DNA of 39,017 bases from a phage, in sequence record PZ168289.1; one strand, 5' to 3'. The notes below the pieces were generated by a model. It saw only the letters and a list, made by a program, of their open reading frames with translations, was not told the origin of the DNA and did not search any database. Each line of letters begins with the position of its first letter. Position 1 is the first letter of the stretch. A program made the position numbers and the translations under genes. Shown here in pieces: positions 7,849 through 11,844 of the stretch.

Positions 7849-8300
7849 CACTTAACTCCTTTCTTCTTGGGGATGAGGATACCTGAAGGCAGACGTACAG
7901 TCGCCTCTCGCAGCCACTCAACCGGGATGAACTTATCGGCATACTTATAGCCGTTCTTTTCGCACCATGCGCCATACGTGGTCGGAGACCCCTTGTATAA
8001 CTTGGAGCGGGAACTTGAGAACACGAACCGAATGTCTAACTCAGGGTGCTGTTCTTTAATCAATAGGTGCTTCTTACGGTCTTCCACTGCGAAGATTCCT
8101 TTGGTCTCCACAATTATTCCATTGGGCAATACAAAGTCTGGACAATAACTGTGTAGAGACTGAGGGATTGTGTATGCTATTTTATACATCTCGTATTCAG
8201 CCTTTACGCCATTCTTCTCCAGCCACTCTTGGTTCTTTGCCTCAAGACCAGACCTATATATTCCTACCGAATGTCCCCTGCTTATACTACGTGTAGCCAT
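7848..8300 (-). CDS. endonuclease I (T7 gp3-like Holliday junction resolvase)
   Basis: Strong similarity to T7 gp3 (YRSGLE, PDF.LPNGI.VETKG, DRKKHLLI.EQHPELDIR.VFSSS..KLYKGSPT.YG). Confidence 0.96.
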   Translation of the reverse strand: MATRSISRGHSVGIYRSGLEAKNQEWLEKNGVKAEYEMYKIAYTIPQSLHSYCPDFVLPNGIIVETKGIFAVEDRKKHLLIKEQHPELDIRFVFSSSRSKLYKGSPTTYGAWCEKNGYKYADKFIPVEWLREATVRLPSGILIPKKKGVK

Positions 8301-8731
8301 GTTTCTCTCCTTAGTATCTTACCTATTGTTGGCTGAGACACTCCGTAGATTGTGGCGAGCTGTCGCTGGGTAAGGCCAGAAGACCTAATTTCCTTGACTT
8401 TAGTATCAGTAAGTTTAGACATACCGCACTTCTCTCCCGGAACATGAGGAGGGTTTACACCGCGCCCCTTGTTACGCATGTCCTGAAGGTTATCCCTTTG
8501 GGTTCCTACAGTTAGATGCTCAGGGTTACAACATAGCGGAGTGTCACAAGTGTGTAGTAGAACACCATTTGGTTCTTCACCTGTAATCAGCTCGTAGGCT
8601 ACACGATGGGCAAGCATGGTTTTCCCATTATGCCTAATCTGACTGTAGCCATTGTTGTTAACGCAGCCAGTGAAAAGCCAGCAGCTACCCGAAACCCTGA
8701 GTCGCTGCTTGAGGCTTTCTATTGTAGCCAT
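8282..8731 (-). CDS. HNH homing endonuclease (copy 1 of 3)
   Basis: Cys-rich HNH motif (CW.FTGC, LAHRVAYEL, HTCD.PLCCNPEHL) plus C-terminal HTH-like tail; start overlaps SSB stop, end overlaps gp3 start. Confidence 0.85.
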   Translation of the reverse strand: MATIESLKQRLRVSGSCWLFTGCVNNNGYSQIRHNGKTMLAHRVAYELITGEEPNGVLLHTCDTPLCCNPEHLTVGTQRDNLQDMRNKGRGVNPPHVPGEKCGMSKLTDTKVKEIRSSGLTQRQLATIYGVSQPTIGKILRRETWLHVV

Positions 8732-9429
8732 TAGAAGTCGTAATCGCCACCAGAGCCAGAGTCGCCACCGCCTTCGGAACCATCATCACCGAAGTCATCG
8801 TCACCGAAGTCACCATCGGTTGACGCTTTGTAGCCAGTACCGAGGTCTTCATCATCACCCCAGCCACCATCGCCACCAGCACCATCACCTTTCCACTCCT
8901 TCAGTTCTACCAGAAGGCAGGACTCAAGCTGGAGCTTAACGCTTGCACCAGTCGCAGCGTTCCACTTGAACGGCAGGACTTTGAACTTGACCTTCAGCTT
9001 AGACCCAGCGCCAATATTCGGGACGTCACGGATGAGTTTAGCATCGGTGTCGTAGAACCGTAATACGATAGGCTCGGACTTGCCGTCTTTCAGGTAAGAC
9101 GCAAAGCATTTAAACTTCAGGGTAACAGTACCGTCACCATTCTCAATCCACGGCATGTCGCCTTCTCGTGGTTCAATAGGCTTCTTGCCACGCTGAACCT
9201 GAGGCGGGTTCTTCTCGTGGTCTGCGAGTGCTTTCGCATACGCATCGTCATGAATCTTCTGTAAGACATCAATCATCTTACGGACCTTCGGGTTGCTCAG
9301 GTCGAATGTCAGGTTAACCTTATGCTCACCACGCTCGTTAAACTTGGTGTCTGCTTTGTTCAGCCATGCGTAAGGCTCAACGATACCAGCTACCGGAGTG
9401 GTGAAAGTCTTCAGTTGCTCTTTAGCCAT
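8731..9429 (-). CDS. single-stranded DNA-binding protein (T7 gp2.5-like)
   Basis: 232 aa as in T7; conserved blocks (EPYAW, NPPQVQRGKKP, GDMPW..NGDGT.T.KFKC, WNAATGASVKLQLES.LLVEL) and acidic C-terminus ending DF. Confidence 0.96.
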   Translation of the reverse strand: MAKEQLKTFTTPVAGIVEPYAWLNKADTKFNERGEHKVNLTFDLSNPKVRKMIDVLQKIHDDAYAKALADHEKNPPQVQRGKKPIEPREGDMPWIENGDGTVTLKFKCFASYLKDGKSEPIVLRFYDTDAKLIRDVPNIGAGSKLKVKFKVLPFKWNAATGASVKLQLESCLLVELKEWKGDGAGGDGGWGDDEDLGTGYKASTDGDFGDDDFGDDGSEGGGDSGSGGDYDF

Positions 9430-9469
9430 CGGTGTAAATCTCCTAATTTAAAAGTTACGAACTGGACGT

Positions 9470-9492
9470 CTGTCCTACAGTGATAGTTTAGG
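9470..9492 (-). promoter_or_regulatory. phage RNAP promoter (SSB upstream)
   Basis: CCTACAGTGATAGTTTAG, one mismatch at -3; contains the gp2 stop codon. Confidence 0.6.
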
Positions 9493-9646
9493 CCTCAGGA
9501 CGAATCCGTCCGACCACAAACCCAGCGTCCTCATACTCTTGGGACTTCAAGGTAGCCTCTTCAAGAGACTTTGCGTACACCGGAACCTCGAAGGACTTAA
9601 CGCGACCCTCAAGCTCCACGATGTACTTCTTCTCTACGTCAGTCAT
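9488..9646 (-). CDS. gp2-like inhibitor of host RNA polymerase
   Basis: 52-aa ORF (below track threshold), hand-translated; FEVPVYA...AGF.VGRIRP resembles T7 gp2; TAA stop lies inside promoter 9470-9492. Confidence 0.55.
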
Positions 9647-9724
9647 AGACCACGCTCCTTCCATAAGTTGTAGAGCTGAAGGTAATCGACGTTACCTGTC
9701 TCCTCAAATTTTCTCTCAGCCCAC

Positions 9725-10060
9725 TCACTCGGCAGCATAGCACTTACCTTTATGTAGGTCGAACAGCTCCTGATAGAAGGCTGCTTTGTTCAGGTCCTTC
9801 TCCATAGTAGCCAGCTCTGACTTCTTACCAGCTCGGAGTCGATACTTCAGGACGTTACCCATGCAGAAACCACGGAACTCGCTGACAGTCATTGACCGCG
9901 CGATAATCTCAATGGATTCCACGCCGTCAAAGACCTGATAGTGTGACGGCTTGCGAACCCCGTCATCTTTACTACACGCGGCGATGATGCTGGTAACAGC
10001 ACCGCAGTCGCACGAACCGAAGCTAAGGACCGAGCGGCACCACTCCTTGTGCTTAGCCAT
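9725..10060 (-). CDS. gp1.7-like protein, C-terminal domain only (T7 gp1.7 is a nucleotide kinase)
   Basis: KPSHYQVFDGVESIEIIARSMTVSEFRGFCMGNVLKYRLRAGKKSELA matches the C-terminal half of T7 gp1.7; 111 aa vs 196 in T7; AAGGAGGTGG RBS. Confidence 0.8.
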   Translation of the reverse strand: MAKHKEWCRSVLSFGSCDCGAVTSIIAACSKDDGVRKPSHYQVFDGVESIEIIARSMTVSEFRGFCMGNVLKYRLRAGKKSELATMEKDLNKAAFYQELFDLHKGKCYAAE

Positions 10061-10313
10061 TTACCACCTCCTTCACGTACTCAATGAATAGACGAACGCG
10101 AGGCCACTTAGTGTAGACCACGGGTACATTGGTCTCACGCTTCTGGCGAGCCTCTTCAGCTTTGCCCGGAGTAATCAGAGCGAAGACTGTAGGTGACATC
10201 TTAACGGCCTTCCCGAAGTAGCCCAGCTTCTCGTTGCGCTTAATGCAAGCGAACGGGTTGTTTGACAGGTGGAAGGTACTGGAATAACGGTTGAACATTA
10301 AGTTCTTAAACAT
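10053..10313 (-). CDS. hypothetical protein (gene 1.5/1.6 position)
   Basis: 86-aa ORF with AAGGAGG RBS before ATG 10313, just downstream of promoter 10342-10364. Confidence 0.65.
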   Translation of the reverse strand: MFKNLMFNRYSSTFHLSNNPFACIKRNEKLGYFGKAVKMSPTVFALITPGKAEEARQKRETNVPVVYTKWPRVRLFIEYVKEVVNG

Positions 10314-10341
10314 GGTCGTCCTCCTTAGGTCGAAGTTATGG

Positions 10342-10364
10342 TTGTCCTATAGTGATAGCTTAGG
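10342..10364 (-). promoter_or_regulatory. phage RNAP promoter (gene 1.5/1.6 region)
   Basis: CCTATAGTGATAGCTTAG, one mismatch at -12; directly after the TE-like terminator. Confidence 0.65.
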
Positions 10365-10399
10365 GTCGGGCTGGTGGCCCAGACGATAGCTTGCTAGCA

Positions 10400-10437
10400 C
10401 AAAGCAAAGAAACCCAGCAGTCCGAAGACCACTGGGT
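10400..10437 (-). terminator. intrinsic terminator downstream of ligase (T7 TE-like)
   Basis: Minus RNA CCCAGUGGUC-UUCG-GACUGCUGGG followed by UUUCUUUGCUUU; position matches T7 TE after gene 1.3. Confidence 0.65.
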
Positions 10438-10555
10438 TGACGTTATAATGAATCTCTTAAGGCTACTGCCTCGGCTATGGTCTTGGCATATAGGACCACG
10501 CGCTCTCCGTTGACCACCTTCTTGATACAGTAAAGCTCTCGACCTTTCATCTACT

Positions 10556-11581
10556 TTAAATCTTGACTGTAGGATTATCCTCAGTTCCACGCCACTGGTC
10601 GAACGAGGGATGTCGCAATGAGCCATCTGGTGTCTCCTCCATGTAGGTAATCTGACAGGCCCACCCTTTGTAGTAATCTGGGTCCGACTTAACATTCTCC
10701 GTGAACTCGGACATAAGGGCGCGACTAATGTTAGTTGCGGAGACCTCCATCCCGTTCTCGAGCATAACGTCAAAGCCGATGACCATACCTTCGTTGGCTA
10801 GACCTTCTGTTCCCCACACCGGGAGAACAACGTGACCATCTGCCTCTTCACTTGGCTTCATCTTCCACATACCAGACTTCTTACCACGCTTGTATTTTCC
10901 CAGTGGGTCCTTGACTACCAGACCTTCATGTCCATCTGCTCGCTTCTCCTCGTACAAATCACGAAGAGACTCAAGGTTGAACACTGTATGACTCTCAGAG
11001 AGAACCCAGTCGATTTCCGGGAAGTATTTCTGAAGGAGAGGGACGATAGCTTCGGCCTTCAGGCGGGTTACGCTATGGATAGGACCTTCTGCTTTCGGGT
11101 CAGCAATGGTTGTCATGTCTACGACACCGTATACAACAACCTTAAGTCTTGACCGGGCTACCCAGAACGGGACCTTATTGCCTCGTCCCGGATAACATTC
11201 AGCGAACTCTTCGTTGCTAGTCTTCAGCCACTTCGTTCGGATGAGACCCGATGATGTGTTGAAGTCAACGCCTTTGACCATGACCTCTCCGTCAATCATC
11301 AGACCCACGCCTTCGTATCCAGCTTGACGTAGGAACCATCGCCAGTCAGCTTGGGTCCACGCATTCCCTAACTCAGAGTTCATCCACTCCAAGGCTGGAA
11401 GAGGTTTAGACTCACGGCTCAGCCAGTAGGTCTCACCTTCACGCAGTACCGGGAGGTTCAGACGCACACCGTCATACTTCACTTCAGCTTCCAGCGACCC
11501 TGCTGCTGCCAGTGCTTTCGTAACGCCTGACTCAGAGTAATCTACAGCTCGGTGTGGGTTAGTTTTGATAGTCGTTGTCAT
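10556..11581 (-). CDS. ATP-dependent DNA ligase (T7 gp1.3-like)
   Basis: Ligase motifs (EVKYDGVR, DGE.MVKGVDFNT.SGL.RTKW, EGHEGL.VKDP...YKRGKKSG.WKMKP, WACQI.YMEETPDGSLRHPSF); start set to ATG 11581 (MTTTIKTNP) overlapping gp1.2 stop. Confidence 0.95.
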   Translation of the reverse strand: MTTTIKTNPHRAVDYSESGVTKALAAAGSLEAEVKYDGVRLNLPVLREGETYWLSRESKPLPALEWMNSELGNAWTQADWRWFLRQAGYEGVGLMIDGEVMVKGVDFNTSSGLIRTKWLKTSNEEFAECYPGRGNKVPFWVARSRLKVVVYGVVDMTTIADPKAEGPIHSVTRLKAEAIVPLLQKYFPEIDWVLSESHTVFNLESLRDLYEEKRADGHEGLVVKDPLGKYKRGKKSGMWKMKPSEEADGHVVLPVWGTEGLANEGMVIGFDVMLENGMEVSATNISRALMSEFTENVKSDPDYYKGWACQITYMEETPDGSLRHPSFDQWRGTEDNPTVKI

Positions 11582-11844
11582 TATGATTTTCTCCATGTGT
11601 CGAGTTGGTCAGCGAGACCATTAAGGAAGTTGGTTGCAGTATTGTATAGTACGTCTTCATCGTAGTGTGCGAAGGACTCAAAAGCGAGTATGTTACCAGC
11701 TCGGTCCTCGACCCTGAGTCTCATACACTCTTGTCGTGACACATGGTCTTGAAACTCCTGAGATATGACAGCTAAGTCTAACTGATAAAGCCTGTTACAC
11801 GCTGCTTTGAAAGCGTTTAGGTTGCCACTATAAAGTCGGCCCAT
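11581..11844 (-). CDS. gp1.2-like protein (dGTPase inhibitor in T7)
   Basis: MGRLYSGNL.AFKAA.N.L.QLDLAVI closely matches the T7 gp1.2 N-terminus; same length. Confidence 0.9.
   Translation of the reverse strand: MGRLYSGNLNAFKAACNRLYQLDLAVISQEFQDHVSRQECMRLRVEDRAGNILAFESFAHYDEDVLYNTATNFLNGLADQLDTWRKS

What the first reader, a model, noticed from the sequence alone, without database searches (positions are those of the whole stretch)
9725..10060. gp1.7 homolog reduced to its C-terminal domain
The ORF matches only the C-terminal ~75 aa of T7 gp1.7 (a nucleotide kinase); the N-terminal half is absent and the gene is 111 aa instead of 196. Either the kinase is split or lost, or the C-terminal domain has an independent role.
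Basis: partly seen in the sequence, partly recalled or inferred. Interest (0 to 1): 0.35.

Follow-up and report, generated by a model that had tools for sequence, protein, structure and literature searches.

The report
Short-form phage gp1.7 (DUF3310) protein
This is an intact, strongly conserved short version of the T7-family gene 1.7 protein: the family's conserved 77-residue core preceded by a short unrelated leader. The same architecture is already recorded in many related phages, so the finding is correct but ordinary.

Summary
ORF 9725..10060 (- strand, 111 aa) matches T7 gp1.7 only over T7 residues 120-196 (71% identity, E 1e-41). That stretch is Pfam DUF3310 (77 bits, cutoff 24).

The T7 N-terminal region is not encoded anywhere in this circularly permuted, near-complete K1F-like (Kayfunavirus) genome. 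It is therefore neither split off nor hidden by a frameshift.

The gene is not decaying:
- It has a strong Shine-Dalgarno sequence.
- Its ATG overlaps the gene 1.6 stop codon.
- The domain shows dN/dS of 0.00-0.10 among relatives.

The same 109-112 aa gene occurs in CR44b, SH3, CHX131, Bas105 and others. The CR44b record already notes "lacks the N-terminal region", and the CR44b paper calls it a pseudogene, probably wrongly.

Across relatives, gp1.7 has an almost invariant DUF3310 core behind a swappable N-terminal cassette, giving proteins of 94-221 aa. Family-wide, bare or nearly bare domains of 76-117 aa are common.

Most likely the protein keeps the core gp1.7 activity (dTMP/dGMP kinase), and the T7 N-terminus is a lineage-specific accessory. 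Kinase activity of the core alone is inferred, not shown.

Already known; low interest.

The parts
9725..10060 (-). Gene 1.7 short form: CDS of 111 aa plus stop codon
   Evidence: ORF list. 98-99% identical proteins are in public data (P0001; CHX131). It lies in the gene 1.7 position, between gene 1.6 and genes 1.8/2.
9728..9964 (-). DUF3310 core (aa 33-111), the part homologous to T7 gp1.7 residues 120-196
   Evidence: BLASTP 71% identity, E 1e-41. tblastn places it at 9964..9734. Pfam PF11753 77.4 bits. AF2 pLDDT is above 90 for about aa 40-110, giving a beta-hairpin plus three helices. dN/dS 0.00-0.10.
9965..10060 (-). Leader (aa 1-32) with H4, C8, C17, C19 and C29, unrelated to T7's N-terminus
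   Evidence: It has no match to T7 residues 1-119. AF2 pLDDT is below 50. In 29 clusters with this architecture, aa 1-21 are fairly conserved (C8 100%, C17 93%, C19 86%) and aa 22-31 are variable. Pairwise dN/dS is 0.2-3.5, from few sites.
9966..10051 (-). Swappable N-terminal cassette. DNA homology to relatives that carry other N-modules breaks here.
   Evidence: blastn HSPs end at about 10045-10057 and resume at about 9957-9977 in L010, L011, L013, L016, L019, L021 and K1F. Relatives carry roughly 170-440 bp of other sequence in this gap.
10064..10073 (-). Shine-Dalgarno sequence AAGGAGGTGG, 3 nt upstream of the ATG. The ATG (10060..10058) overlaps the gene 1.6 stop codon (10055..10053) in ATGGCTAA.
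   Evidence: Read directly from the sequence. The same SD precedes the first ATG in all relatives examined.
10053..10313 (-). Gene 1.6 (86 aa), the upstream gene, with which gene 1.7 shares an overlapping stop/start junction
   Evidence: ORF list. phrog_1777 E 1.4e-32. Annotated as 1.6 in CR44b and K1F.
10344..10358 (-). Phage-RNAP promoter core upstream of gene 1.6 (phi1.6 equivalent); probable start of the 1.6-1.7-1.8-2 transcription unit
   Evidence: CTATCACTATAGGAC is one of 10 copies on the - strand, against 0.25 expected by chance. CR44b has a predicted promoter at the same place.
9643..9738 (-). Gene 1.8 homologue (31 aa). It overlaps the 3' end of gene 1.7 by 14 nt and the start of gene 2.
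   Evidence: 62% identical to K1F gp1.8, E 2e-13. phrog_1312 E 3.8e-11.
9488..9664 (-). Gene 2, the host RNA polymerase inhibitor and downstream neighbour
   Evidence: Pfam RNA_pol_inhib PF16857, E 4.3e-20.

Best explanation
The ORF is a functional, minimal-architecture orthologue of T7-family gene 1.7. It consists of the conserved DUF3310 core (aa 33-111) behind a short, poorly structured, Cys-containing leader.

It appears to be transcribed with genes 1.6, 1.8 and 2 from the phi1.6-type phage promoter, and its start codon overlaps the gene 1.6 stop codon.

The T7 N-terminal region (Cys-rich, zinc-ribbon-like modules plus a linker) is not part of the conserved machinery. In K1F-like phages that position is a recombination cassette holding many alternative modules, or almost nothing.

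The core most likely does what T7 gp1.7 does. T7 gp1.7 acts as an oligomer and phosphorylates dTMP and dGMP to the diphosphates without a P-loop and without a required metal, supporting phage DNA synthesis. The conserved basic residues (K72, R74, R76, K80, K92) with H40, Y41 and Y73 are the candidate nucleotide and phosphate site.

Shown here: homology, intactness, purifying selection, cassette structure and absence of the N-domain from the genome. Inferred: retention of kinase activity, oligomerisation and the active-site residues.
For: Homology and family membership:
- 71% identity to T7 residues 120-196.
- DUF3310 at 77 bits against a cutoff of 24.
- phrog_2585 'nucleotide kinase', E 8e-51.

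Intactness and expression signals:
- Shine-Dalgarno sequence and an ATG overlapping the gene 1.6 stop codon.
- Promoter core at 10344-10358.

Selection:
- The domain has dN/dS 0.00-0.10 with dS 0.13-0.5 among six relatives.

Conservation:
- All residues that are invariant or nearly invariant across 150 cluster representatives at 50% identity are retained: P38, H40, Y41, E48, I50, A54, G64, C66, G68, N69, K72, Y73, R74, R76, G78, K80, K92, Y96, C107.

The N-terminus is variable and dispensable in nature:
- Kayfunavirus gp1.7 proteins of 94, 106, 109-112, 141, 146-147, 155 and 221 aa share an almost identical core.
- Of the 151 domain matches among the 150 listed family representatives, 26 have at most 35 residues before the domain and 9 have at most 10.
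- Bare-domain proteins of 76-101 aa are encoded on 43-45 kb phage contigs.
- DNA homology breaks exactly around the cassette.

Structure:
- The core is modelled confidently and the leader is not.
- In a longer relative, the T7-type N-module is modelled as its own helices and Cys-rich loop ahead of the core. pTM 0.53 leaves its position relative to the core uncertain.

Background on T7:
- The second ATG of T7 gene 1.7 (M42) has its own AAGGAG.
- My recollection, not verifiable here because the Tran et al. papers are not held, is that T7 makes two active forms of about 22 and 18 kDa, that the C-terminal half suffices for dideoxythymidine sensitivity (Tran et al., Mol Microbiol 2010), and that the enzyme is a complex of about 12 subunits (Tran et al., JBC 2012).
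- The T7 dTMP/dGMP kinase function is as quoted in PMC11897194.
Against: - No experiment on any short form is known to me or was found in the library.
- The shortest T7 form I recall as shown active (about 155 aa) still carries the middle Cys-rich module, which is missing here.
- Other DUF3310 proteins are known only as toxic early proteins or as triggers of host defences, with no kinase data: SaV and the mycobacteriophage proteins.
- The 'C-terminal half suffices' statement rests on my memory alone.
Confidence: 0.6

Rival explanations
1. Functional DUF3310 protein that has lost kinase activity. Without the T7-type N-module, the core acts only through another family-wide role: binding or poisoning a host target early in infection (SaV-like host takeover).
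For: - DUF3310 proteins are strongly cytotoxic when overexpressed in mycobacteria.
- SaV is toxic in L. lactis and E. coli, and its biochemical function is unknown.
- The fold shows no recognisable nucleotide-binding architecture.
- The strong purifying selection fits any conserved function, not specifically a kinase.
Against: - The core is 71% identical to the T7 enzyme, with all invariant residues kept.
- A family-wide conserved basic motif (GN.LKYR.R.G.K ... K) fits phosphate binding.
- Toxicity could itself result from nucleotide-pool imbalance.
- From memory, the C-terminal half of T7 gp1.7 suffices for ddT sensitivity.
Confidence: 0.28
2. Pseudogene: a decaying remnant of gene 1.7 left by an N-terminal deletion. 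This is how the CR44b authors annotated the same ORF.
For: The genome announcement calls it a pseudogene (PMC4038870). T7 gene 1.7 is non-essential in the laboratory (PMC9712115).
Against: - In CR44b too, the ORF is intact from an SD-preceded ATG to the stop codon.
- dN/dS is 0.00-0.10 over the domain despite dS up to 0.5. Window against CR44b gives 12 synonymous and 0 non-synonymous differences in 77 codons.
- The full-length gene is present in 33 phage records at the DNA level, and up to 245 records cover at least 80% of the protein.
- Bare-domain homologues are common across the family.
Confidence: 0.03
3. Sequencing or assembly frameshift, or a split gene: the N-terminal domain is encoded nearby in another frame or as a separate ORF.
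For: None was found.
Against: - T7 residues 1-119 give a best tblastn E of about 0.9 anywhere in the window.
- 271 homologue N-termini searched with phmmer --max against all stop-to-stop peptides of the window hit only the ORF's own leader. The one exception is a marginal hit to gp2.5 (E 8e-4), which I take to be a composition artefact.
- The gene 1.6 stop codon overlaps the gene 1.7 start codon, leaving no room for another ORF.
- Five independent relatives have the same gene structure.
Confidence: 0.01

Closest known systems
Bacteriophage T7 gp1.7 (NP_041967, 196 aa), a dTMP/dGMP nucleotide kinase
   Same: - Same genome position, between gene 1.6 and genes 1.8/2.
- Stop/start junction with gene 1.6: overlapping in the window, sharing one base in T7.
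- The C-terminal 77 residues are 71% identical, with all DUF3310 invariant residues.
   Different: The window protein lacks T7 residues 1-119: the CxxC...HxC segment, the Cx3Cx4CxxC module and the Pro/Thr/Asp linker. In their place it has an unrelated 32-aa leader. Its calculated pI is 8.5, against 5.1 for T7. Its kinase activity is untested.
Gene 1.7 of Citrobacter phage CR44b and other Kayfunavirus short forms (SH3; SH4/SH5, 107 aa; Dev2, 116 aa; CHX131; pO91; Bas105)
   Same: The architecture and leader are the same (109-112 aa) in CR44b, CHX131, SH3 and IMG/VR relatives, with 86-99% protein identity. SH4/SH5 and Dev2 short forms are reported in PMC4925675.
   Different: There are only point differences, concentrated in the leader. 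CR44b's annotation as a pseudogene conflicts with the selection evidence.
Phage K1F gp1.7 (155 aa) and SP6 gp24 (156 aa)
   Same: Same DUF3310 core, annotated 'nucleotide kinase'. K1F is the type species of the window's genus.
   Different: K1F keeps the T7-type middle Cys-rich module and matches the M42-start form of T7. The 150-156 aa relatives from about 43-45 kb Klebsiella phage genomes (e.g. pKP-M186-2.2, NNA-G4) carry a different N-module beginning MSKFKVGD, possibly SH3/KOW-like.
SaV of lactococcal phages sk1/p2, the trigger of the AbiV abortive-infection system
   Same: It carries a DUF3310 domain, is an early protein of about 100-130 aa and is toxic on overexpression (PMC8306868). BFVD fold hits labelled 'SaV-like' match the model.
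   Different: It is a distant sequence relative from phages of a Gram-positive host. No kinase activity has been reported. Sensitivity to AbiV cannot be tested here.
T7 gp1.7 as activator of the E. fergusonii Avs5 defence protein
   Same: It is the same protein family. [quoted passage not shown]
   Different: Which part of gp1.7 is sensed is unknown. Whether the short form is recognised is untested.

Membership tests
Pfam DUF3310 (PF11753) | Match to the family HMM above the curated gathering score | tested here: met
   77.4 bits against a cutoff of 24, E 8.6e-22, covering profile positions 1-59 of 60.
Pfam DUF3310 (PF11753) | Conserved signature residues: P-x-H-Y, E48, I50, A54, G-x-C-x-G-N-x-x-K-Y-R-x-R-x-G-x-K, K92, Y96, C107 | tested here: met
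   All are present. Column frequencies are 0.89-1.00 across 150 cluster representatives at 50% identity. They are invariant in alignments A3 and A4.
Pfam DUF3310 (PF11753) | Predicted fold shared with other family members | tested here: met
   The AF2 core has pLDDT above 90. The top hits of a Foldseek search against BFVD (predicted viral structures) that carry a name are 'Nucleotide kinase', 'DUF3310 domain-containing protein' or 'SaV-like', with E down to 2e-10.
T7-family gene 1.7 orthologue | Conserved position between gene 1.6 and genes 1.8/2, within the class II region | tested here: met
   The gene order ligase, 1.6, 1.7, 1.8, 2, 2.5 matches T7, K1F and CR44b.
T7-family gene 1.7 orthologue | T7-type N-terminal region (residues 1-119, Cys-rich modules) | tested here: not met
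   Absent from the ORF and from the whole window. This region also varies or is absent among acknowledged orthologues, so it does not define the family.
gp1.7-type nucleotide kinase (enzyme activity) | Phosphorylates dTMP and dGMP using dTTP, dGTP or GTP, independent of metal; confers ddT sensitivity | not testable with these tools
   This is a biochemical property. Only T7 gp1.7 has been assayed (quoted in PMC11897194; the primary papers are not held).
gp1.7-type nucleotide kinase (enzyme activity) | Resemblance to a known nucleotide-kinase or P-loop fold | tested here: not met
SaV-like trigger of AbiV / activator of Avs5 | Recognition by the host defence protein | not testable with these tools
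   Only the shared DUF3310 domain can be shown. The interaction needs an experiment.

The most novel reading that the evidence does not exclude
The bare DUF3310 core of about 77 residues, assembled as an oligomer, is by itself a complete nucleotide kinase with no P-loop and no metal requirement, and would be among the smallest known. The swappable N-terminal cassette in front of it (window 9966-10051, replaced by roughly 170-440 bp in relatives) would be a fast-evolving accessory. It could be shaped by conflict with host sensors that detect gp1.7-family proteins, such as Avs5 and AbiV-like systems. On this reading the near-leaderless 111-aa form is a minimal, sensor-evading version.
Probability: 0.12. 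Interest if true: 0.5.

Novelty: already known. Interest (0 to 1): 0.15.

Why it matters
For this window it matters little. The gene is an ordinary member of a well-populated family, and the 'missing N-terminus' is a known feature of many K1F-like phages.

Two small practical points follow.
1. The pseudogene label on the CR44b copy is probably wrong.
2. Automatic 'nucleotide kinase' labels on short DUF3310 proteins rest on a single assayed enzyme (T7), which carries extra modules.

More broadly, natural variants like this one define the minimal conserved unit of an unusual kinase family that has no structure and no known catalytic mechanism. They would be convenient constructs for solving it, and for mapping what Avs5 and AbiV recognise.

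Tried and rejected
- Frameshift or split gene: rejected. tblastn with T7 residues 1-119 and phmmer --max with 271 homologue N-termini against the six-frame peptides found nothing outside the ORF.
- Pseudogene: rejected on dN/dS and on the intact start signals.
- Structural zinc site formed by H40, C66, H103 and C107: dropped.
- Leader as a folded zinc knuckle (H4, C8, C17, C19): left open but weak. pLDDT is below 50, Cys residues are lost in some relatives (P0016 and L009) and C29 is only 55% conserved.
- The afdb50 Foldseek library was not available.
- Primary gp1.7 biochemistry papers (Tran et al. 2008, 2010, 2012, 2014) could not be read. Statements about the two T7 forms, the sufficiency of the C-terminal half and the complex of about 12 subunits are therefore from memory. 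The calculated masses are 22,184 and 17,711 Da. The first agrees with the figure I remember and the second only roughly.

Full report
**What is there**

The window is a circularly permuted, near-complete genome of a K1F-like T7-family phage (genus Kayfunavirus). All large ORFs lie on the - strand. The region 8700-11600 is 92% identical to Citrobacter phage CR44b and about 88-94% identical to many Escherichia and Salmonella Kayfunavirus records.

On the - strand the gene order is:
- ligase, 10556..11596
- a phage-promoter core, 10344..10358
- gene 1.6, 10053..10313
- the ORF in question, 9725..10060
- a 31-aa gene 1.8 homologue, 9643..9738
- gene 2, 9488..9664
- a second promoter core, 9472..9486
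- gene 2.5, 8731..9429

The order is the same as in T7, K1F and CR44b.

**Check of the observation**

The 111-aa product aligns with T7 gp1.7 (196 aa) only over window residues 33-109 and T7 residues 120-196. Identity is 71%, with no gaps, E 1e-41. That stretch is Pfam DUF3310 (77.4 bits against a cutoff of 24). The best PHROG is phrog_2585, 'nucleotide kinase' (E 8e-51).

One addition is needed. The first 32 residues (MAKHKEWCRSVLSFGSCDCGAVTSIIAACSKD) form a leader unrelated to anything in T7 gp1.7.

**Is the N-terminal domain elsewhere?**

No. T7 residues 1-119 give only noise in a permissive tblastn of the whole window (best E about 0.9).

I searched them with phmmer --max against every stop-to-stop peptide of the window. 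Every hit with E below 1e-3 fell on the ORF's own leader, from relatives that share that leader, with one exception. That was a marginal hit on gp2.5 (E 8e-4), which I take to be a composition artefact.

The gene 1.7 ATG (10060..10058) overlaps the gene 1.6 stop codon (10055..10053) in the sequence ATGGCTAA. It is preceded by AAGGAGGTGG, so there is no room for a hidden exon or a frameshifted N-terminus. CR44b, CHX131 and three IMG/VR contigs have the same 109-112 aa ORF. The length is therefore real.

**Is it a dying gene?**

The CR44b record annotates its copy as a pseudogene that 'lacks the N-terminal region', and the genome announcement repeats this (PMC4038870). The data here argue against that reading.
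- In CR44b the same SD-preceded 111-aa ORF is intact.
- Over the 77 domain codons, pairwise Nei-Gojobori dN/dS among six relatives is 0.00-0.10, with dS of 0.13-0.51.
- Window against CR44b shows 12 synonymous and 0 non-synonymous differences.

The leader behaves differently. Its dN/dS is 0.2-3.5, but from very few sites. This fits relaxed or diversifying selection and cannot separate the two.

Among 29 clusters (at 90% identity) with this architecture, residues 1-21 are fairly conserved (H4 100%, C8 100%, C17 93%, C19 86%) and residues 22-31 are variable. That set was selected by similarity to the query, so the conservation is somewhat inflated.

**The wider pattern**

In K1F-like phages gp1.7 is an almost invariant DUF3310 core preceded by a cassette that differs from phage to phage.
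- Proteins of 94, 106, 109-112, 141, 146-147, 155 and 221 aa all start at an SD-preceded ATG next to the gene 1.6 stop, and all join the core at '..DDGVRKPSHY'.
- Cassette types include:
  - the window's leader;
  - a T7/K1F-type Cys-rich module (C-x(2-4)-C-x-G-x-x-C-x-x-C-P);
  - a module beginning MIKxGD, possibly SH3/KOW-like;
  - a CxxC..CxC knuckle;
  - combinations of these, including the window leader fused to longer modules (P0018, P0030, P0039, P0042).
- One relative (L018) looks like a T7-type N-terminus with an internal deletion.

At the DNA level, homology of 86-95% with relatives runs through gene 1.6 to about window 10045-10057. It then stops, and resumes at about 9957-9977 through the rest of the gene and on to gene 2.5. 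The full 336-bp gene is found in 33 phage records. Its 3' two-thirds is found in 183 records.

**The family at large**

A full HMMER scan of 1.84 billion cluster representatives finds 2,969 clusters (at 50% identity) with E of 0.001 or better. The following figures come from the 151 domain matches in the 150 best representatives.
- The domain is almost always C-terminal.
- Total length ranges from 82 to 341 aa, with a median of 156.
- 26 matches have at most 35 residues in front of the domain, and 9 have at most 10.

A profile search lists many bare-domain proteins of 76-101 aa encoded on 43-45 kb phage contigs, for example Proteus phage PM 116 and Vibrio phage VD1. Twenty PHROG families contain the module, at either end of the protein. 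A protein that is little more than DUF3310 is thus a normal member of the family. T7's 196-aa form is one elaborated variant.

**Structure**

AlphaFold2 with a 137-sequence alignment models residues about 40-110 at pLDDT above 90. The model has a beta-hairpin (42-48) and three helices (49-55, 59-78, 83-106). The leader is below 50.

A longer relative with the T7-type module (P0085, 142 aa) gives the same core preceded by an N-terminal unit modelled at moderate confidence. pTM is 0.53, so the relative placement of the two parts is uncertain.

Family-invariant residues are P38, H40, Y41, E48, G64, C66, G68, N69, K72, Y73, R74, R76, G78, K80, K92, Y96 and C107. The basic cluster is a reasonable candidate for a phosphate-binding site. 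That is inference.

**What is known about the family**

- T7 gp1.7 phosphorylates dTMP and dGMP (quoted in PMC11897194) and is non-essential in the laboratory (PMC9712115).
- T7 gp1.7 was recently reported to activate the Avs5 defence protein of E. fergusonii (PMC11897194).
- The lactococcal phage protein SaV, which triggers AbiV, carries DUF3310 (PMC8306868; PMC13064643).
- DUF3310 proteins are among the most toxic products in mycobacteriophage overexpression screens.
- Short gp1.7 homologues of 107 and 116 aa were tabulated for phages SH4/SH5 and Dev2 (PMC4925675).

The primary biochemical papers are not in the library. From memory only:
- T7 makes two active forms, of about 22 and 18 kDa.
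- The C-terminal half suffices for dideoxythymidine sensitivity.
- The enzyme is a complex of about 12 subunits with no metal requirement.

The sequence is consistent with an internal start at M42, which is preceded by AAGGAG. The calculated masses are 22,184 and 17,711 Da.

**Interpretation**

The best-supported reading is a functional short-form gp1.7. The conserved DUF3310 core carries the family's function, most likely the gp1.7-type nucleotide kinase activity working as an oligomer. The T7 N-terminal half is a dispensable, lineage-specific accessory that sits in a recombination hot spot.

I put about 0.6 on retention of kinase activity and about 0.28 on a conserved non-kinase role. Pseudogene or artefact is very unlikely. 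'Lost' is unsupported. The 'independent role of the C-terminal domain' is essentially right but already implicit in what is known about DUF3310.

**Novelty and score**

Proteins 98-99% identical are already public. The missing N-terminus is written into a 2014 GenBank record. The finding is real but already known, and I score its interest at 0.15.

What remains of interest is general rather than specific to this window. It concerns the minimal catalytic unit of an unusual kinase family with no solved structure, and whether the N-terminal cassette diversity reflects conflict with host sensors such as Avs5.

Noticed in passing
window 9643-9738 (- strand): A 31-aa ORF ([31 protein letters not shown]) overlaps the end of gene 1.7 by 14 nt and the start of gene 2. 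It is a gp1.8 homologue: 62% identical to K1F gp1.8 and a match to phrog_1312. The equivalent ORF is present but unannotated in CR44b; the CHX131 record also lists no CDS at that position.
   Followed up: partly
window 8282-8731 (- strand): A 149-aa HNH homing endonuclease (phrog_1872, phrog_59) with a C-terminal HTH region lies immediately downstream of gene 2.5. CR44b has genes 2.55 and 3 at that position instead, while several relatives (JSS1, PH1061, CHRF_10022) list an HNH endonuclease in this region. It is probably a mobile insertion.
   Followed up: partly
window 10444-10560 (- strand): This is a second variable spot, between the ligase gene and the phi1.6-type promoter. DNA homology to several relatives breaks here. 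A 35-aa ORF at 10443..10550 has no PHROG match. T7 has genes 1.4 and 1.5 at this position.
   Followed up: no
whole window, - strand: 987, 9472, 10344, 12102, 15166, 18435, 23458, 31165, 35808, 36795: There are ten copies of a phage-RNAP promoter core, CTATCACTRTAGGAC with up to 2 mismatches, all on the - strand, against 0.25 expected by chance. Copies ending in GGGA sit before late genes and copies ending in GGAC before early or middle genes. The gene order shows that the window is a circular permutation of a complete genome of about 39 kb.
   Followed up: partly
L001 (CR44b, HG818823) 2500-2835, - strand in the locus: The CR44b record and paper call gene 1.7 a pseudogene and annotate only the 246-nt part homologous to T7. 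The DNA contains an intact 111-aa ORF with its own Shine-Dalgarno sequence, under strong purifying selection. This is probably a mis-annotation.
   Followed up: yes
L018 (IMGVR_UViG_2974604219_000001), gp1.7 ORF: This relative's gp1.7 begins MGCIACLEK, fused directly to PEVTPTDDQPS. That is T7 residues about 20-27 joined to about 105-115, so it looks like an internal deletion of a T7-type N-terminus. Its C-terminus diverges after 'DLS' (reading WATSGRPLSCHLQSSL), which suggests a frameshift near the 3' end.
   Followed up: no
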